Below are positions 7,493 through 34,870 of a DNA stretch of 39,105 nt, one piece after another (position 1 is the stretch's first letter; every line of letters starts with the position of its first letter). The DNA lies in the NCBI GenBank assembly GCA_043817345.1, contig JBDRGZ010000068.1:1-39105 (forward strand). The letters run 5' to 3'. The notes under the pieces were generated by a model. The model searched no databases. It worked only from the letters and a program-made list of their open reading frames with translations, and was not told where the DNA came from. This DNA is from Patescibacteria group bacterium (GTDB lineage Bacteria > Patescibacteriota > Patescibacteriia > UBA2196). A program made the translations under genes and the position numbers.

Positions 7493-7610
7493 TATATTAC
7501 CAAATAAATTTTAATGTATTTTTAGCTAATTTTAGCTAATATATATTAAAAATTATTTTAATTAAAATTGTGGATAAGTTAAGTTAAATAAAATTTTGTT
7601 TTATTTTACC

Positions 7611-9876: not shown

Positions 9877-11811
9877 ATGGGAAAAATTTTAGGTATCGAT
9901 CTCGGTACAACAAACAGTGCAATGGCTGTGATGGAAGGTGGCAGCCCAAAGATTTTAGAAAATAAAGAAGGAAATAGAACAACTCCTTCTATGGTGGCTA
10001 TTAACAAAGCCAATGAAAGATCAGTTGGTTTAATAGCTAAACGTCAAGCTGTTACTAATCCAACCAATACTTTGTTTTCAATTAAACGTTTAATTGGAAG
10101 ACGTTGGGAAGATGAAGAAGTACAGCGCGATTTAAAAAATATGCCTTTTAAGATTAAGCAGGCAGGTGTTGGTGTTAAAGTTGAAATGAATGGCAAAGAC
10201 TATACACCACAAGAAGTTTCTGCAATGATCTTACAAAAGTTAAAAACTGATGCAGAAGAAAAAACTGGTGAAAAAATTGAAGAAGCTGTTATTACAGTTC
10301 CAGCTTACTTTGATGATTCACAAAGACAAGCCACTAAAGAAGCTGGTGAAATTGCTGGTTTAAAAGTTGCTCGTATTGTTAATGAACCTACAGCAGCAGC
10401 TTTAGCTTATGGTTTTGAAAAGAAAAAAGGCCAACAAATTGCTGTATACGATTTGGGTGGAGGAACTTTTGATGTTTCCATTCTTGATGTAGAAGAAGAT
10501 ACAATTGAAGTTAAATCAACTAATGGTGATACACATTTGGGCGGTGATGATTTTGATCAAGTATTAATTAACTGGATTATTGATGAATTTAAAAAACAAG
10601 AAGGCATTGATTTGTCAAACGACCCAATGGCTTTACAAAGAGTTAAAGAATCTGCAGAAAAAGCTAAGATTGAATTATCTACTGCTCAAGAAACAGAAAT
10701 TTCGCAACCTTTCATTACTACTGATGCTAATGGCCCAAAACACTTATCTTTAAAGATAACCAGATCTAAATTAGAAGAATTAGTTGGTGATTTAGTTAAG
10801 AAAACATTAGAACCTGTTAAACAAGCTTTAAAAGATGCTAGTTTTGAAGCTAAAGATGTCGAAGAAGTGATTTTAGTTGGTGGTATGACAAGAATGCCAT
10901 TGGTTCAAAAAACCGTTGAAGAGTTTTTTGGTAAGAAACCAAACATGTCTGTTAATCCTGATGAAGTAGTTGCTTTAGGCGCGGCTGTTCAAGCAGGTGT
11001 TTTACAAGGTGATGTAAAAGATGTTCTTTTACTTGATGTAACTCCTTTAACTTTAGGTATTGAAACTTTAGGTAGTGTTTCAACTCCTTTAATTGAGAAA
11101 AATACAACTATCCCTACTTCAAAATCTCAAGTTTTCTCAACAGCAGCAGACAACCAACCTTCTGTAGAAATTCATATTTTACAAGGTGAACGTCCAATGG
11201 CTGGAGATAACAAAACACTTGGTAGATTTATTCTAGATGGAATTCCACCATCACCGCGTGGTTTACCACAAATTGAAGTTACTTTTGATATTGATGCTAA
11301 TGGTATTTTAAGTGTTAAAGCTCAAGATAAAGGTACTGGAAAAGAACAACATATTACAATTACAGCTTCAACAGGATTAAATAAAGATGAGATTGAAAAA
11401 ATGAAAAAAGATGCAGAATCTCATGCTGATGAAGACAAAAAGAAGAAAGAATCTATTGAAGTTAAAAATATGGCCGAAACTTTGTACTATACAACAGAGA
11501 AAGCTTTAAAAGATGCTGGAGATAAATTACCAGAGGCAGATAAGAAATCTATAGAAGAAAAGATGGAAGCTCTTAAATCTGTATTAAAAGAAGACGACCC
11601 CGTTTCTAAGAACGGGGCAAGCATTGAAGCTATTAAAAAAGCTACAGAAGAACTTTCAACAGAAGCACAAAAGATTGGACAAGCTATGTACGCTGCTTCG
11701 CAGCAAGAAACAAACACCAAGAAACAAGATACAAAAGACACAAATGAAAAATCTAGTGATGACAAAAAACCTGAAGAAGCTGAATTTGAGGAAGTTGGTA
11801 AAAAGAATTAA
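9877..11811 (+). CDS. dnaK: Molecular chaperone DnaK (Hsp70)
   Basis: [30 protein letters not shown] and EEV-type acidic C-terminus. Confidence 0.97.
11598..11617. repeat. Family-D GC hairpin inside dnaK (in frame)
   Basis: CCCCGTT-TCTAAG-AACGGGG followed by CAAG. It encodes DPVSKNGAS in the variable C-terminal region. Confidence 0.6.
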
Positions 11812-11851
11812 GAATAAAGAATTATGAATTAAGGGATTTATTGGAATAACT

Positions 11852-11926
11852 GTTCCGAACTTTTAAGGTCGTTGGCCCGCCCGCAACGCCTGAGCAGCTA
11901 GCGATGGCGGGCGGGGAGTTCGGGAC
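11852..11926. repeat. GC-rich long palindromic element (CCCGCC type) downstream of dnaK
   Basis: The outer stem GTTCCGAAC/GTTCGGGAC has one mismatch; the inner stem CCCGCCCGC/GCGGGCGGG is perfect. It contains the ACTTTTAAGGTCG module also present in family-A copies. Confidence 0.75.
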
Positions 11927-11986
11927 TTTTTAAGAATTTTTTGTCAAGCATTGTGGATAAGTAAGCCCGTCAAACGAGCCAAGAAA

Positions 11987-12069
11987 AACAAAAACCGCTA
12001 AAATTAGCGGAATTTGTGGGGTTTTAGACGCCCCGGTTAAGACAATTAGGAACTTGACATCCTCATGTT
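11987..12069 (-). ncRNA. Candidate ~80-nt sRNA with 5' end antisense to the neighbouring tRNA-like RNA
   Basis: Minus-strand promoter: TTGACA (12104-12099), 17-nt spacer, TGtTATACT (12081-12076). Terminator: CCGCTA-ATTT-TAGCGG plus TTTTTGTTTTT (12010-11984). The first 16 nt, ACATGAGGATGTCAAG, complement 15 of 16 nt of the tRNA-like RNA. Confidence 0.4.
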
Positions 12070-12083
12070 TATTTAAGTATAAC
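12054..12083 (+). promoter_or_regulatory. Possible plus-strand promoter facing the DUF3467-dnaJ operon
   Basis: TTGACA (12054-12059), 18-nt spacer, TATAAC (12078-12083). It overlaps the minus-strand -10 element. Confidence 0.35.
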
Positions 12084-12127
12084 AAAATATAAAAAAATTG
12101 TCAAAATTTTTTTTACGGACTGGTCAG

Positions 12128-12198
12128 TGGTGGAGGTGAGGGGAATCGAACCCCCGACACGAGGATGTCAAGACCTGTGTCCTAACCGTAGCACCCCC
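12128..12198 (-). ncRNA. 71-nt tmRNA-TLD-like / tRNA-Ala-like RNA (no D stem, no tag ORF)
   Basis: The reverse complement is GGGGGTG CTACGGTTAG GACACAGG TCTTGACAT CCTCGTGTC GGGGG TTCGATT CCCCT CACCTCC ACCA. It has a 7-bp acceptor stem with G3:U70, A73, an encoded CCA and a T-arm. The 5' end resembles the tmRNA start GGGG..G.UACGGAUUCGACA. Confidence 0.55.
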
Positions 12199-12263
12199 AC
12201 GCAACTGAACACAGCCCGCACACTAATTATAACATAATTTAATAAATTAATTATTAAAAAAAT

Positions 12264-12575
12264 ATGGAACAACAACAAAATTCAAACCAAAATCAAAAAC
12301 AAATGCAAATTAAGATTGACGACAACACATTAAAAGGTGTTTATGCTAATGCAATGCAAGTTTTTCATTCAAAAGAAGAATTTGTTTTGGATTATATGAA
12401 TCTTTCTCCTCATCAAGGAGTAGGAATCATAACTTCACGTGTAATTATTAGTCCAGGACATGCAAAAAGAATGATTGCTGCTTTGAGTGATAATTTAAAG
12501 AAATATGAAGATCAGTTTGGTAAAATTGAAGAAGCTGACGCGCCAAATAATGAATTAGGTTTTAAGACTGAATAA
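12264..12575 (+). CDS. DUF3467-like protein
   Basis: KGVYANAMQVFHSKEEFVLDYM...SRVIISPGHAKRMIAAL...YEDQFGKI resembles DUF3467. Family assignment is from memory. Confidence 0.55.
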   Translation: MEQQQNSNQNQKQMQIKIDDNTLKGVYANAMQVFHSKEEFVLDYMNLSPHQGVGIITSRVIISPGHAKRMIAALSDNLKKYEDQFGKIEEADAPNNELGFKTE

Positions 12576-34826: not shown

Positions 34827-34870
34827 TTATCCACACAAAATATTGACATTTTATTTAAAAAAGGTATACT
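34827..34870 (+). promoter_or_regulatory. Promoter with an upstream TTATCCACA box
   Basis: TTATCCACA (34827-34835), 7 nt, TTGACA (34843-34848), 16-nt spacer, TATACT (34865-34870). The leader carries the hairpin GAAGCCAC-N8-GTGGCTTC (34901-34924). Confidence 0.5.

What the first reader, a model, noticed from the sequence alone, without database searches (positions are those of the whole stretch)
11984..12104. Promoter/terminator-defined sRNA whose 5' end is antisense to the hairpin of the adjacent tmRNA-like RNA
Seen in the sequence, on the minus strand directly downstream of the 71-nt RNA:
- A near-consensus promoter: TTGACA, 17 nt, TGtTATACT.
- A predicted start near 12069.
- An intrinsic terminator: CCGCTA-ATTT-TAGCGG followed by TTTTTGTTTTT.
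- These bound an ~80-nt transcript whose first 16 nt, ACAUGAGGAUGUCAAG, pair with CUUGACAUCCUCGUGU, the loop plus 3' stem strand of the 71-nt RNA. That is 16 bp including one G:U.
- No Ala-rich tag ORF is present, so it is not a classical tmRNA coding piece.
- The same layout recurs at 28285-28514 (see that finding).

Inference: a trans-pairing partner or regulator of the tRNA-like RNA. Possible roles are an antisense RNA, a second piece of a composite RNA, or a toxin/antitoxin-like RNA pair.
Basis: partly seen in the sequence, partly recalled or inferred. Interest (0 to 1): 0.62.

Follow-up and report, generated by a model that had tools for sequence, protein, structure and literature searches.

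The report
Antisense RNA partner of mini-tmRNA
An 86-base RNA gene lies next to a miniature copy of the ribosome-rescue RNA (tmRNA), is built to base-pair with about 40 bases of it, and recurs with it as a small mobile two-RNA cassette, with matching sequence changes, in many ultra-small bacteria; I found no description of such a system.

Summary

- **Gene signals.** On the minus strand, a near-consensus promoter (TTGACA-17-TGtTATACT) and an intrinsic terminator bound an ~86-nt RNA at 12069-11984.
- **Pairing.** The first 16 nt are only the best part. About 37 pairs join sRNA 12069-12025 to nt 2-43 of the 71-nt tmRNA-like RNA at 12128-12198.
- **Conservation.** I collected 30 distinct loci from related genomes and metagenomes. 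All keep the same order: promoter, start, antisense segment, terminator. The pairing covaries: 25 of 34 pairs change on both sides, and no shuffle of 500 reached the observed values.
- **Level of selection.** Mismatches are biased to G:U, so pairing is selected on this strand as a single strand.
- **Specificity.** Partners in one genome are orthogonal.
- **Mobility.** The 264-bp unit (11984-12247) is an insertion. It is absent from the same spacer in three relatives and sits elsewhere in a congener. In about a third of loci it lies antisense and in frame inside genes (inteins, LeuRS).

Best reading: a dedicated antisense repressor, antitoxin-like, of a message-less tmRNA mimic. The pairing is well supported. 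The function is inferred.

The parts
11984..12247 (-). Whole two-RNA cassette, 264 bp: promoter P1, the tmRNA-like RNA (TLD), promoter P2, the sRNA and its terminator.
   Evidence: The only stretch shared with the congener's copy is this one (blastn 77% identity over 278 nt; the flanks match a different contig). It is absent from the dnaK-DUF3467 spacer of G001, G007 and G012.
12226..12234 (-). P1, the promoter of the tmRNA-like RNA: an extended -10 (TGtTATAAT) with no recognisable -35. A 27-nt leader follows.
   Evidence: Read. Across 30 loci P1 has a -10 match of 5.5/6 but a -35 match of only 3.3/6.
12128..12198 (-). The 71-nt tmRNA-like RNA (TLD-only mini-tmRNA): G3:U70, a canonical T arm, an encoded ACCA end and a hairpin in place of the message domain. 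It is the target of the sRNA.
   Evidence: Rfam RF00023 scores 43.2 bits over model positions 1-374. My own model R1 scores 89 bits.
12076..12104 (-). P2, the sRNA promoter: TTGACA (12104-12099), a 17-nt spacer, then TG-n-TATACT (12084-12076).
   Evidence: 11 of 12 matches, with TG. Across 30 loci the -35 match is 5.8/6 and the -10 match is 5.3/6, always ending 5-9 nt before the complementary segment.
11984..12069 (-). Predicted sRNA transcript, about 86 nt.
   Evidence: Bounded by the promoter and terminator. Fold z-score -3.75. Homologues are 65-88 nt long, median 72.
12053..12068 (-). Antisense segment 1 (ACAUGAGGAUGUCAAG). It pairs with TLD nt 27-42 (window 12157-12172), the loop plus the 3' stem strand.
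   Evidence: 16 nt, 94%. (z 9.5).
12025..12052 (-). Antisense segments 2 and 3. CCU (12050-12048) pairs with TLD nt 23-25. UGUCUUAACCG (12044-12034) pairs with the D-like region, nt 11-21. GGCGUCU pairs weakly with the 5' acceptor strand.
   Evidence: RNAduplex gives 37 pairs in all, 6 of them G:U, at -54.6 kcal/mol. The same helices appear in RNAalifold and in the pair counts.
11984..12010 (-). Intrinsic terminator: stem-loop CCGCUA-AUUU-UAGCGG (12010-11995), then UUUUUGUUUUU.
   Evidence: All 30 homologues have a terminator here, with 25 different stem sequences.
11952..11960 (-). TTATCCACA (identical to the E. coli DnaA-box consensus), followed 4 nt later by TTGACA (11947-11942). It lies outside the cassette and probably belongs to the flank.
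   Evidence: The motif occurs in 17 of 31 loci, always on the RNA strand. It is also over-represented genome-wide (33 copies against 8.9 expected) next to -35 boxes.

Best explanation
The 86-nt RNA is a dedicated antisense RNA against the neighbouring 71-nt message-less tmRNA mimic (the TLD).

**Proposed steps**
1. The sRNA is transcribed from its own strong sigma-70-type promoter.
2. Its largely unstructured 5' end meets the anticodon-loop-like hairpin loop of the TLD.
3. The duplex then spreads over about 37 pairs, covering TLD nt 2-43.
4. This opens the hairpin, the D-like region and the 5' acceptor strand. The TLD can then no longer adopt the L-shape needed for end maturation, alanylation and SmpB/EF-Tu binding, and it becomes a substrate for double-strand RNases.

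**Net effect.** The sRNA represses a potentially harmful ribosome-rescue decoy. Each TLD has its own private antisense. The pair forms a protein-free 264-bp cassette that behaves as mobile or selfish DNA, and the logic resembles an RNA-toxin/RNA-antitoxin pair.

**Shown**
- The gene signals.
- The extended complementarity, its covariation and its strand-specific wobble bias.
- Orthogonality between partners in one genome.
- The insertional nature of the cassette.

**Inferred**
- That both RNAs are made.
- The direction of regulation.
- Toxicity of the TLD and any addiction effect.
For: **Gene signals**
- The window has a promoter and a terminator in place.
- All 30 homologues have a near-consensus P2 ending 5-9 nt before the complement.
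- All 30 have a terminator, with 25 distinct stems.

**Pairing**
- The 30 loci average 32.5 pairs and -48.9 kcal/mol.
- 80.2% of cells are paired, against 34-46% when the partner is slid by 1-3 columns.
- 25 of 34 pairs change on both sides, and no shuffle of 500 reached the observed values.
- RNAalifold finds the helix unprompted: 19 of 21 predicted pairs are compensatory.

**Strand specificity**
- Transition mismatches are 169 G:U-type against 46 A.C-type.
- Opposite a TLD G, 34.5% of partners are U. Opposite a TLD C, only 15.1% are A (odds ratio 3.0, p 1e-7).

**Specificity within a genome**
- Cognate duplexes are -54.6 and -51.0 kcal/mol. Cross duplexes are -21.8 and -24.6.
- The resident tmRNA is not a target: -24.4 against -23.7 +/- 3.4 for shuffled sRNA.

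**Controls**
- Ordinary 77-nt tRNA-Ala genes hit by the same model have no partner.

**Promoter asymmetry**
- P2 has a full -35 and -10. P1 has only an extended -10.

**Context**
- The genome has its own full tmRNA (64.4 bits) and SmpB, so the TLD is an extra.
- A CDS-less tmRNA of phage DS6A inhibited the host tmRNA in E. coli (Mao et al. 2009, as reported in PMC11915505).
- The cassette is inserted and mobile.
Against: - There are no expression data.
- No terminator lies between the TLD and P2. P1 transcripts may therefore read through and carry TLD and anti-TLD on one molecule, which then folds on itself. A cis role cannot be excluded.
- Partnerless 71-nt TLD genes with their own terminators exist in the same class (L136, L138, L140) and in a GC-rich viral contig. 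A TLD is therefore not always kept under antisense control.
- Two copies (L139, L150) lack G3:U70, so alanylation is not universal.
- One locus (L159) pairs a TLD with a non-cognate sRNA.
- Toxicity is inferred from one cited heterologous experiment on a different mini-tmRNA.
Confidence: 0.5

Rival explanations
1. Cis-acting pro-sequence or processing guide. P1 transcripts run through to the sRNA terminator. The anti-TLD segment pairs within the same molecule, holding the TLD unfolded or creating an RNase III site. It would control, or be required for, TLD maturation rather than repress it in trans.
For: No terminator-like site lies between the TLD and P2. The 243-nt co-transcript folds with the TLD 5' half paired to the anti-TLD (MFE -87.1 kcal/mol, z -5.8). 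In several loci the TLD leader and trailer pair with each other (read).
Against: A full-consensus -35/-10 promoter sits 5-9 nt before the complement in all 30 loci. A purely cis element would have no need for it. In the related locus at 28285-28515 the antisense gene lies upstream of its target and has its own terminator, so cis read-through cannot be the general rule.
Confidence: 0.15
2. The TLD is a sponge or decoy for the sRNA. The sRNA's real targets would lie elsewhere: host mRNAs into which cassettes are inserted antisense, or other tRNA-like RNAs. The TLD would titrate it.
For: About a third of cassettes lie antisense inside genes. There, both cassette RNAs are fully complementary to the host mRNA. 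The loops of the two window modules share CUUGACA.
Against: The window cassette is intergenic. The covariation is between the sRNA and its own TLD. Cross-pairing with the other modules of the genome and with the resident tmRNA is at background level.
Confidence: 0.1
3. A DNA-level inverted repeat of a small mobile element. The two arms would be needed as a DNA or single-stranded-DNA structure for transposition, for instance by a hairpin-recognising nuclease. The RNA signals would be incidental.
For: The unit is mobile and dispersed. The genome is rich in palindromic elements and has two small GIY-YIG ORFs. G.T wobbles are also tolerated in single-stranded-DNA hairpins.
Against: The arms are about 90 nt apart and lie inside the unit, not at its ends. 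Each copy has private arm sequences, whereas a shared enzyme would need a fixed site. The consensus promoter and the terminator are conserved in position in 30 of 30 loci. The hairpin does not fit the published Ssn-related motif: the tag is not followed by a hairpin within 0-2 nt (my reading of the motif in PMC11893778). No GIY-YIG gene lies near either cassette.
Confidence: 0.1
4. The sRNA is the coding piece of a two-piece tmRNA. It would dock on the TLD hairpin and supply the tag reading frame.
For: The Rfam permuted-tmRNA model aligns weakly from the T arm to the sRNA 5' end (18.2 bits, E 0.19).
Against: That score is far below the 47-bit cut-off. By eye, the homologues share no frame with a resume codon and a stop. 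The sRNA consists only of the antisense segment plus the terminator. In different subfamilies the sRNA pairs with opposite strands of the hairpin (C68_1 against C27). The genome has a complete tmRNA.
Confidence: 0.03

Closest known systems
CDS-less (message-less) tmRNAs: mycobacteriophage DS6A tmRNA (Mao et al. 2009), about-65-bp plastid forms, and jakobid mitochondrial tmRNA (as summarised in PMC11915505)
   Same: The sRNA's target is of this kind: an RNA of about 70 nt that keeps only the tRNA-like domain of tmRNA, present alongside a full host tmRNA. The DS6A form is reported to inhibit host tmRNA.
   Different: None of these is described with an adjacent antisense RNA gene. Here the mini-tmRNA and its antisense form a conserved two-gene cassette, seen here only in the window's own phylum and in metagenomes (a Patescibacteria lineage according to earlier notes).
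Antisense RNA control systems with tail-loop recognition: CopA/CopT of plasmid R1, RNA I/RNA II of ColE1, and Sok/hok type I toxin-antitoxin (from my own knowledge)
   Same: A short terminator-ended antisense RNA from a strong promoter. Recognition starts at a YUNR-like loop and spreads to a long duplex interrupted by bulges and wobbles. Specificity is private to each copy, as with incompatibility groups.
   Different: The target is a non-coding tRNA-like RNA, not an mRNA or a primer. The antisense gene does not overlap its target. It is a diverged inverted copy placed about 60 nt downstream on the same strand.
Type VIII toxin-antitoxin systems, in which both toxin and antitoxin are RNAs: SdsR/RyeA and CreT/CreA (papers listed, e.g. 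PMC8501985)
   Same: Both partners are RNAs, and the presumed harmful partner acts on translation. CreT sequesters a tRNA; here the harmful partner is a tmRNA mimic.
   Different: Toxicity is not shown here. CreA needs Cascade, and SdsR/RyeA overlap in cis. This pair would act by plain trans pairing, and it travels as a 264-bp cassette.
Two-piece (circularly permuted) tmRNA of alphaproteobacteria and cyanobacteria (Rfam RF04321)
   Same: Two RNAs from one locus, held together by base pairing, one of them carrying the T arm and the CCA end.
   Different: In those systems the two pieces together rebuild one tmRNA with a tag frame. Here the tRNA-like RNA is complete on its own, the second RNA has no frame, and pairing would unfold the tRNA-like RNA rather than complete it.
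Rickettsia palindromic elements (RPE): small non-autonomous repeats inserted in frame in genes
   Same: In about a third of loci the cassette lies inside an ORF and is read through in frame as about 85-90 extra residues.
   Different: RPEs carry no RNA genes. This unit carries two promoters, a tRNA-like gene, an antisense gene and a terminator, and it is always antisense to the host gene.

Membership tests
Promoter/terminator-defined bacterial sRNA gene | A sigma-70-type promoter at the right distance from the proposed 5' end. | tested here: met
   11 of 12 matches with TG. Conserved in 30 of 30 homologues.
Promoter/terminator-defined bacterial sRNA gene | An intrinsic terminator at the 3' end. 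| tested here: met
   Present in 30 of 30 homologues, with 25 different stems.
Promoter/terminator-defined bacterial sRNA gene | A detected transcript with these ends. | not testable with these tools
Trans-pairing antisense RNA of the neighbouring RNA | Extended complementarity beyond chance. | tested here: met
   z 9.5 for the 16-nt core. 37 pairs at -54.6 kcal/mol.
Trans-pairing antisense RNA of the neighbouring RNA | Compensatory changes in both partners across homologues. | tested here: met
   25 of 34 pairs change on both sides, no shuffle of 500 reached the observed values, and slid controls are far lower. RNAalifold agrees.
Trans-pairing antisense RNA of the neighbouring RNA | Duplex formation in vivo or in vitro, and an effect on the target. 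| not testable with these tools
   Needs gel shifts, structure probing or genetics.
tmRNA, Rfam RF00023 (applies to the partner RNA, not the sRNA) | A tRNA-like domain: acceptor stem with G3:U70, a D-loop analogue, a T arm and A73. | tested here: met
   The model aligns at positions 1-17 and 346-374. The sequence was read.
tmRNA, Rfam RF00023 (applies to the partner RNA, not the sRNA) | An mRNA-like domain with a tag frame and pseudoknots, and a score at or above the gathering score. | tested here: not met
   328 model positions are replaced by 26 nt. The score is 43.2 bits against a cut-off of 47.
Coding piece of a two-piece tmRNA, RF04321 | A match to the permuted model, and a conserved tag reading frame. 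| tested here: not met
   18.2 bits against 47. By eye, no frame is shared among homologues.
Type I toxin-antitoxin | The target encodes a small toxic peptide. | tested here: not met
   The target is a 71-nt tRNA-like RNA. I saw no conserved ORF on the RNA strand.
Type VIII (RNA-RNA) toxin-antitoxin | An RNA antitoxin that neutralises an RNA toxin by pairing. | tested here: inconclusive
   Pairing is shown. Neutralisation is not testable here.
Type VIII (RNA-RNA) toxin-antitoxin | The toxin RNA arrests growth when the antitoxin is absent. | not testable with these tools
   The only support is an analogy with phage DS6A mini-tmRNA (PMC11915505).
Dispersed palindromic repeat (REP/RPE/Ssn-motif type) | Many near-identical copies per genome with a fixed recognition sequence. 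| tested here: not met
   The genome has two copies, plus one tRNA-type variant, with different arm sequences. The arms covary from copy to copy.
Any described RNA family (Rfam 15) | A match of the sRNA to a curated covariance model. | tested here: not met
   Only chance-level hits cover 11984-12104 (SNORD11B at 19 bits, E 1.9).

The most novel reading that the evidence does not exclude
The unit is a protein-free selfish genetic element made only of two RNA genes. The first is a message-less tmRNA mimic that would jam ribosome rescue, acting as an RNA toxin. The second is a private, short-lived antisense RNA that disarms it, acting as an RNA antitoxin. Together they would make the 264-bp cassette hard to lose. 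That would let it spread through streamlined genomes of ultra-small bacteria, even into inteins and essential genes, where it is read through in frame.
Probability: 0.25. Interest if true: 0.9.

Novelty: new variant of a known kind. Interest (0 to 1): 0.72.

Why it matters
- **A new kind of target.** This would be a bacterial antisense RNA whose dedicated target is a tRNA-like, tmRNA-derived RNA rather than an mRNA or a replication primer. I found no description of such a pairing.
- **A minimal system.** Two small RNA genes with no protein gene offer a very small system for studying how trans-translation can be interfered with and how that interference is kept in check.
- **Engineering use.** The private, orthogonal pairing of each copy is a natural set of specificity variants. 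It could be reused to build orthogonal RNA-RNA switches.
- **Genome biology.** The cassette's habit of sitting in frame inside essential genes and inteins adds a new type of passenger to the mobile DNA of ultra-small bacteria with reduced genomes. It also creates about 85-residue protein insertions whose sequence is dictated by RNA genes on the other strand.

Tried and rejected
- **Genome contigs pattern scan.** The scan for mini-TLDs allowed too wide a gap.
- **Phage records.** blastn of the cassette against phage records found nothing.
- **Viral contigs.** The scan found one GC-rich contig with a partnerless mini-TLD. That speaks to the target RNA, not to the sRNA.
- **Coding piece of a split tmRNA.** Rejected. 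There is no conserved frame, the permuted model scores 18 bits, and the pairing topology differs between subfamilies.
- **Small-protein gene on either strand.** Rejected. The 51-aa TTG frame at 12085-11930 starts upstream of the predicted transcript start. The window cassette has stops in all three opposite-strand frames. A short frame seen in C27-type copies (MW..KKPL..) follows RNA-constrained sequence and is broken in the window and in L133.
- **Ssn-type hairpin repeat.** The loop resembles the tag in some copies only, the published motif's geometry does not fit, and the GIY-YIG genes are elsewhere.
- **TTATCCACA as a cassette component.** It is frequent beside -35 boxes all over the genome, so it is not specific to the cassette.
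- **Resident tmRNA as a second target.** The duplex energy is at the shuffle level.

Full report
**What is in the window**

All features lie on the minus strand.
- An extended -10 promoter (TGtTATAAT, 12234-12226) and a 27-nt leader precede a 71-nt RNA at 12198-12128.
- Rfam's tmRNA model matches this RNA end to end. It replaces 328 model positions with a 26-nt hairpin and scores 43.2 bits against a gathering score of 47.
- The RNA has a G3:U70 pair, a canonical T arm and an encoded ACCA end.
- About 24 nt further on lies the only promoter-like site found in 11700-12400: TTGACA, 17 nt, TG-n-TATACT, 11 of 12 matches.
- Seven to eight nt after the -10 begins ACAUGAGGAUGUCAAG (12068-12053).
- An intrinsic terminator follows at 12010-11995, and its U run ends at 11984.
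- The predicted RNA is 86 nt long and folds better than shuffles (z -3.75).
- The 16-nt complement to 12157-12172 was found by the repeat finder. It is far beyond chance: score 15.25 against 6.89 +/- 0.88 in 500 dinucleotide shuffles.

**The pairing is much longer than 16 nt**

- RNAduplex pairs sRNA 12069-12025 with nt 2-43 of the tmRNA-like domain (TLD). There are 37 pairs, 6 of them G:U, at -54.6 kcal/mol.
- After the 16-nt core come three further segments:
  - CCU pairs with nt 23-25.
  - UGUCUUAACCG pairs with the D-like region, nt 11-21.
  - A weak segment pairs with the 5' acceptor strand.
- The sRNA is in effect a diverged inverted copy of the 5' two-thirds of the TLD, followed only by a terminator.

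**The genome**

- The window is contig C68 of a 0.71-Mb assembly with 30.6% G+C and 94.5% completeness.
- I could not name the organism with the tools left. Earlier notes call it Patescibacteria, and the genome's size and composition fit that.
- It has a full-length tmRNA (C21:5968-6364, 64.4 bits). SmpB lies directly upstream of it. The 71-nt RNA is therefore an extra.
- A second module on contig C27 (658-728) has an identical acceptor stem, T arm and terminator, but a different hairpin. Its downstream RNA begins with the complement of that different hairpin.

**Homologues**

- I built a covariance model of the TLD.
- It found 71-nt TLDs in related genomes. Counting only those with an antisense partner gives 11 of the 101 genomes searched, the window's own among them.
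- In an even sample of 400 genomes of the phylum it found two more, both with a partner.
- A metagenome pattern scan added 32 loci.
- After removing duplicates, 30 distinct loci carry a partner. They share these features:
  - P2 matches the -35 consensus at 5.8 of 6 and the -10 at 5.3 of 6, and ends 5-9 nt before the complementary segment.
  - The duplex averages 32.5 pairs and -48.9 kcal/mol.
  - Every locus has an intrinsic terminator, with 25 different stem sequences. Predicted RNA lengths are 65-88 nt, median 72.
- The TLD's own promoter (P1) is an extended -10 without a -35 (3.3 of 6, background level). This asymmetry between the two promoters is conserved.
- Ordinary 77-nt tRNA-Ala genes hit by the same model have no such partner.

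**Covariation**

I aligned the TLD 5' part with the sRNA 5' part for 28 loci and counted pairs for a structure read from one member.
- 80.2% of cells form standard pairs, against 34-46% when the 3' partner is slid by 1-3 columns.
- 25 of 34 pairs change on both sides.
- 117 cells carry double changes, against 23-49 in the slid controls.
- None of 500 shuffles reaches any of the observed values.
- The helix between the hairpin 5' strand plus loop and the sRNA 5' end is 90.6% paired, and 13 of its 14 pairs are compensatory.
- RNAalifold, given no structure, predicts the same intermolecular helices: 21 pairs, 19 of them with compensatory changes.

The loci are related, so the counts are not independent events. 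The slid controls keep that relatedness and still fall far short.

**RNA or DNA?**

- If the two arms were only a decaying DNA palindrome, transition mismatches would fall equally into G.T-type and A.C-type. They do not: 169 against 46.
- Normalised for opportunity, 34.5% of partners opposite a TLD G are U. Only 15.1% opposite a TLD C are A (odds ratio 3.0, p 1e-7).
- Pairing is therefore selected on this strand as a single strand.
- Single-stranded DNA would tolerate G.T as well. However, the arms are about 90 nt apart, lie inside the unit, and are flanked by a conserved promoter and terminator. That makes RNA the natural reading.

**Specificity**

- Within this genome, cognate pairs give -54.6 and -51.0 kcal/mol. 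Cross pairs give -21.8 and -24.6.
- Over the variable region alone, the 30 cognate pairs average -29.1, against -14.0 +/- 5.2 for non-cognate pairs.
- The resident tmRNA is at shuffle level.
- Acceptor stem and T arm stay constant while hairpin and antisense diversify together. This is the pattern of private partner recognition seen in antisense-controlled plasmid and toxin-antitoxin systems (my own knowledge).

**The unit is an inserted, mobile cassette**

- The only similarity between this locus and the congener's copy (G001, L133) is window 11984-12247 (77% identity).
- The congener's downstream flank matches contig C13 of this genome, not C68.
- The dnaK-DUF3467 spacer of G007 and G012 is about 100 nt long and has no cassette. 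The spacer of G001 holds a small opposite-strand ORF instead.
- In about 10 of 30 loci the cassette lies inside a long ORF. It is always antisense to that ORF and read through without a stop. The hosts are:
  - three inteins (PF14890; C27, L134, L180);
  - a leucyl-tRNA synthetase gene with two tandem copies;
  - a GT4 glycosyltransferase;
  - a zinc-ribbon plus PD-(D/E)XK nuclease gene;
  - a large surface protein.
- The window copy is intergenic and has stops in all opposite-strand frames.
- The antisense-only orientation is what one expects if a same-sense copy would terminate the host transcript (inference).

**Mechanism**

What is shown: two conserved transcription units, a long private duplex kept by compensatory change, and a strong promoter for the antisense.

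What I infer:
1. The free 5' end of the sRNA meets the anticodon-loop-like loop. The mean unpaired probability of sRNA nt 1-12 is 0.36-0.95 across loci. The loop reads CUUG or CUUA, a YUNR-type turn by my reading.
2. The duplex spreads and unfolds the TLD. This blocks end maturation, alanylation and SmpB binding, and exposes the TLD to double-strand RNases.

Why repress it:
- A message-less tmRNA can take the place of tmRNA on stalled ribosomes without providing a stop codon.
- The CDS-less tmRNA of phage DS6A is reported to inhibit host tmRNA in E. coli (PMC11915505).
- A stable tRNA-like toxin with a private antisense from a strong promoter, on a tiny mobile unit, is the logic of an addiction module.

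My confidence by step:
- About 0.9 that the pairing is real and selected.
- About 0.6 that the sRNA is a negative regulator.
- About 0.25-0.3 that the pair works as an RNA-only toxin-antitoxin.

**Evidence against, and open points**

- No expression data could be obtained.
- No terminator separates the TLD from P2. Read-through transcripts would therefore fold on themselves, and a cis role is the main rival.
- Partnerless TLD genes with their own terminators exist in the same class. All three have a UUACCA loop.
- One locus (L159) has a mismatched partner. This could be a recombinant or a chimeric contig.
- Two copies lack G3:U70.

**Literature**

- Searches found message-less tmRNAs and RNA-RNA toxin-antitoxin systems.
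- They found no description of a tmRNA-like RNA with a dedicated antisense gene.
- Absence from the held library is not proof of novelty.

**Earlier notes of this scan**

- Notes on the adjacent findings reached a similar reading. I treated them as leads.
- I re-derived independently the homologue set, the covariation, the cassette boundaries and the empty sites.
- New here: the extent of pairing, the wobble bias, the promoter asymmetry, the orthogonality figures and the list of host genes.

Noticed in passing
L004 (G000:C70:6073-6233, minus strand): A complete tRNA-Ser(GGA) gene sits inside the extended anticodon helix (CCCUCACCUUUC / GAAAGGUGAGGG) of a second tRNA-Ser-like gene that has its own acceptor stem, D arm, variable arm, T arm and CCA.
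   Followed up: no
G000:C26:19040-19240 (plus strand; not in the window): tRNA-Lys(UUU) is nested, with a long flanking helix, inside the D region of a second tRNA-Lys-like gene whose anticodon loop also carries an insert. The arrangement parallels the nested tRNA-Thr at window 31104-31289.
   Followed up: no
G000:C32:2160-2355 and C32:590-690 (minus strand): Two tRNA-like 3' ends (T arm plus acceptor stem, one with G3:U70) are preceded by long AT-rich inserts or by two extra hairpins. ARAGORN calls neither. ARAGORN finds only about 30 tRNAs in the genome and none for Ala, Val, Ile, Pro, Phe, Asp or Cys.
   Followed up: no
window 11952-11960, 28285-28293, 34827-34835, 7569-7577: TTATCCACA, identical to the E. 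coli DnaA-box consensus, occurs 33 times in the genome against 8.9 expected. It typically lies 1-8 nt from a TTGACA -35 box in either orientation. It is present in 17 of 31 cassette loci, always on the RNA strand. It may be a general promoter-proximal regulatory site.
   Followed up: partly
L150 and L139 (G059:C104:5684-6204): A leucyl-tRNA synthetase gene carries two tandem cassettes read through in frame, plus an inserted alpha/beta-hydrolase (Ser_hydrolase) domain. The TLDs here have a GCCGGCG acceptor stem without G3:U70.
   Followed up: partly
L136, L138, L140 (G072:C1, G033:C2, G041:C28): Partnerless 71-73-nt TLD genes from three families share the hairpin loop UUACCA. L136 and L140 have their own terminator directly downstream. 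L140 repeats GAACTTACCACT in the sense direction about 75 nt downstream.
   Followed up: no
L159 (Ga0209343_10038275:212-279): Here a TLD whose body is identical to that of L130 and L181 is followed by an sRNA whose 5' end fits a different hairpin (GGUGGUAAUCCGGG). This is either a recombinant cassette or a chimeric contig.
   Followed up: no
window 12199-12225 with 12108-12127; C27, L132, L134, L147: The 5' leader and 3' trailer of the TLD gene pair with each other and covary between loci: CCAU/AUGG, CUGU/ACAG, CCGU/ACGG, GGGCUG/CAGUCC, GCGGGCUG/CAGUCCGC. This extends the acceptor stem and includes a pair between U-1 and A73 (read).
   Followed up: no
L148 (G072:C3:41159-41230): In a genome of another family, the cassette also lies between dnaK and dnaJ and antisense to them, as in the window. 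This could be a shared hot spot after dnaK or a coincidence.
   Followed up: no
L147, L153, L161 (G002:C47 and two metagenome contigs): Cassettes of two different subfamilies sit at the same position of orthologous genes for a zinc-ribbon (InsA-like, weak) plus PD-(D/E)XK nuclease protein. This suggests site preference or cassette exchange.
   Followed up: partly
L195 (IMGVR_UViG_3300036841_000277:4719-4786): A 69% G+C viral contig carries a 71-nt TLD-only tmRNA-like gene with an encoded CCA end and no antisense partner.
   Followed up: partly
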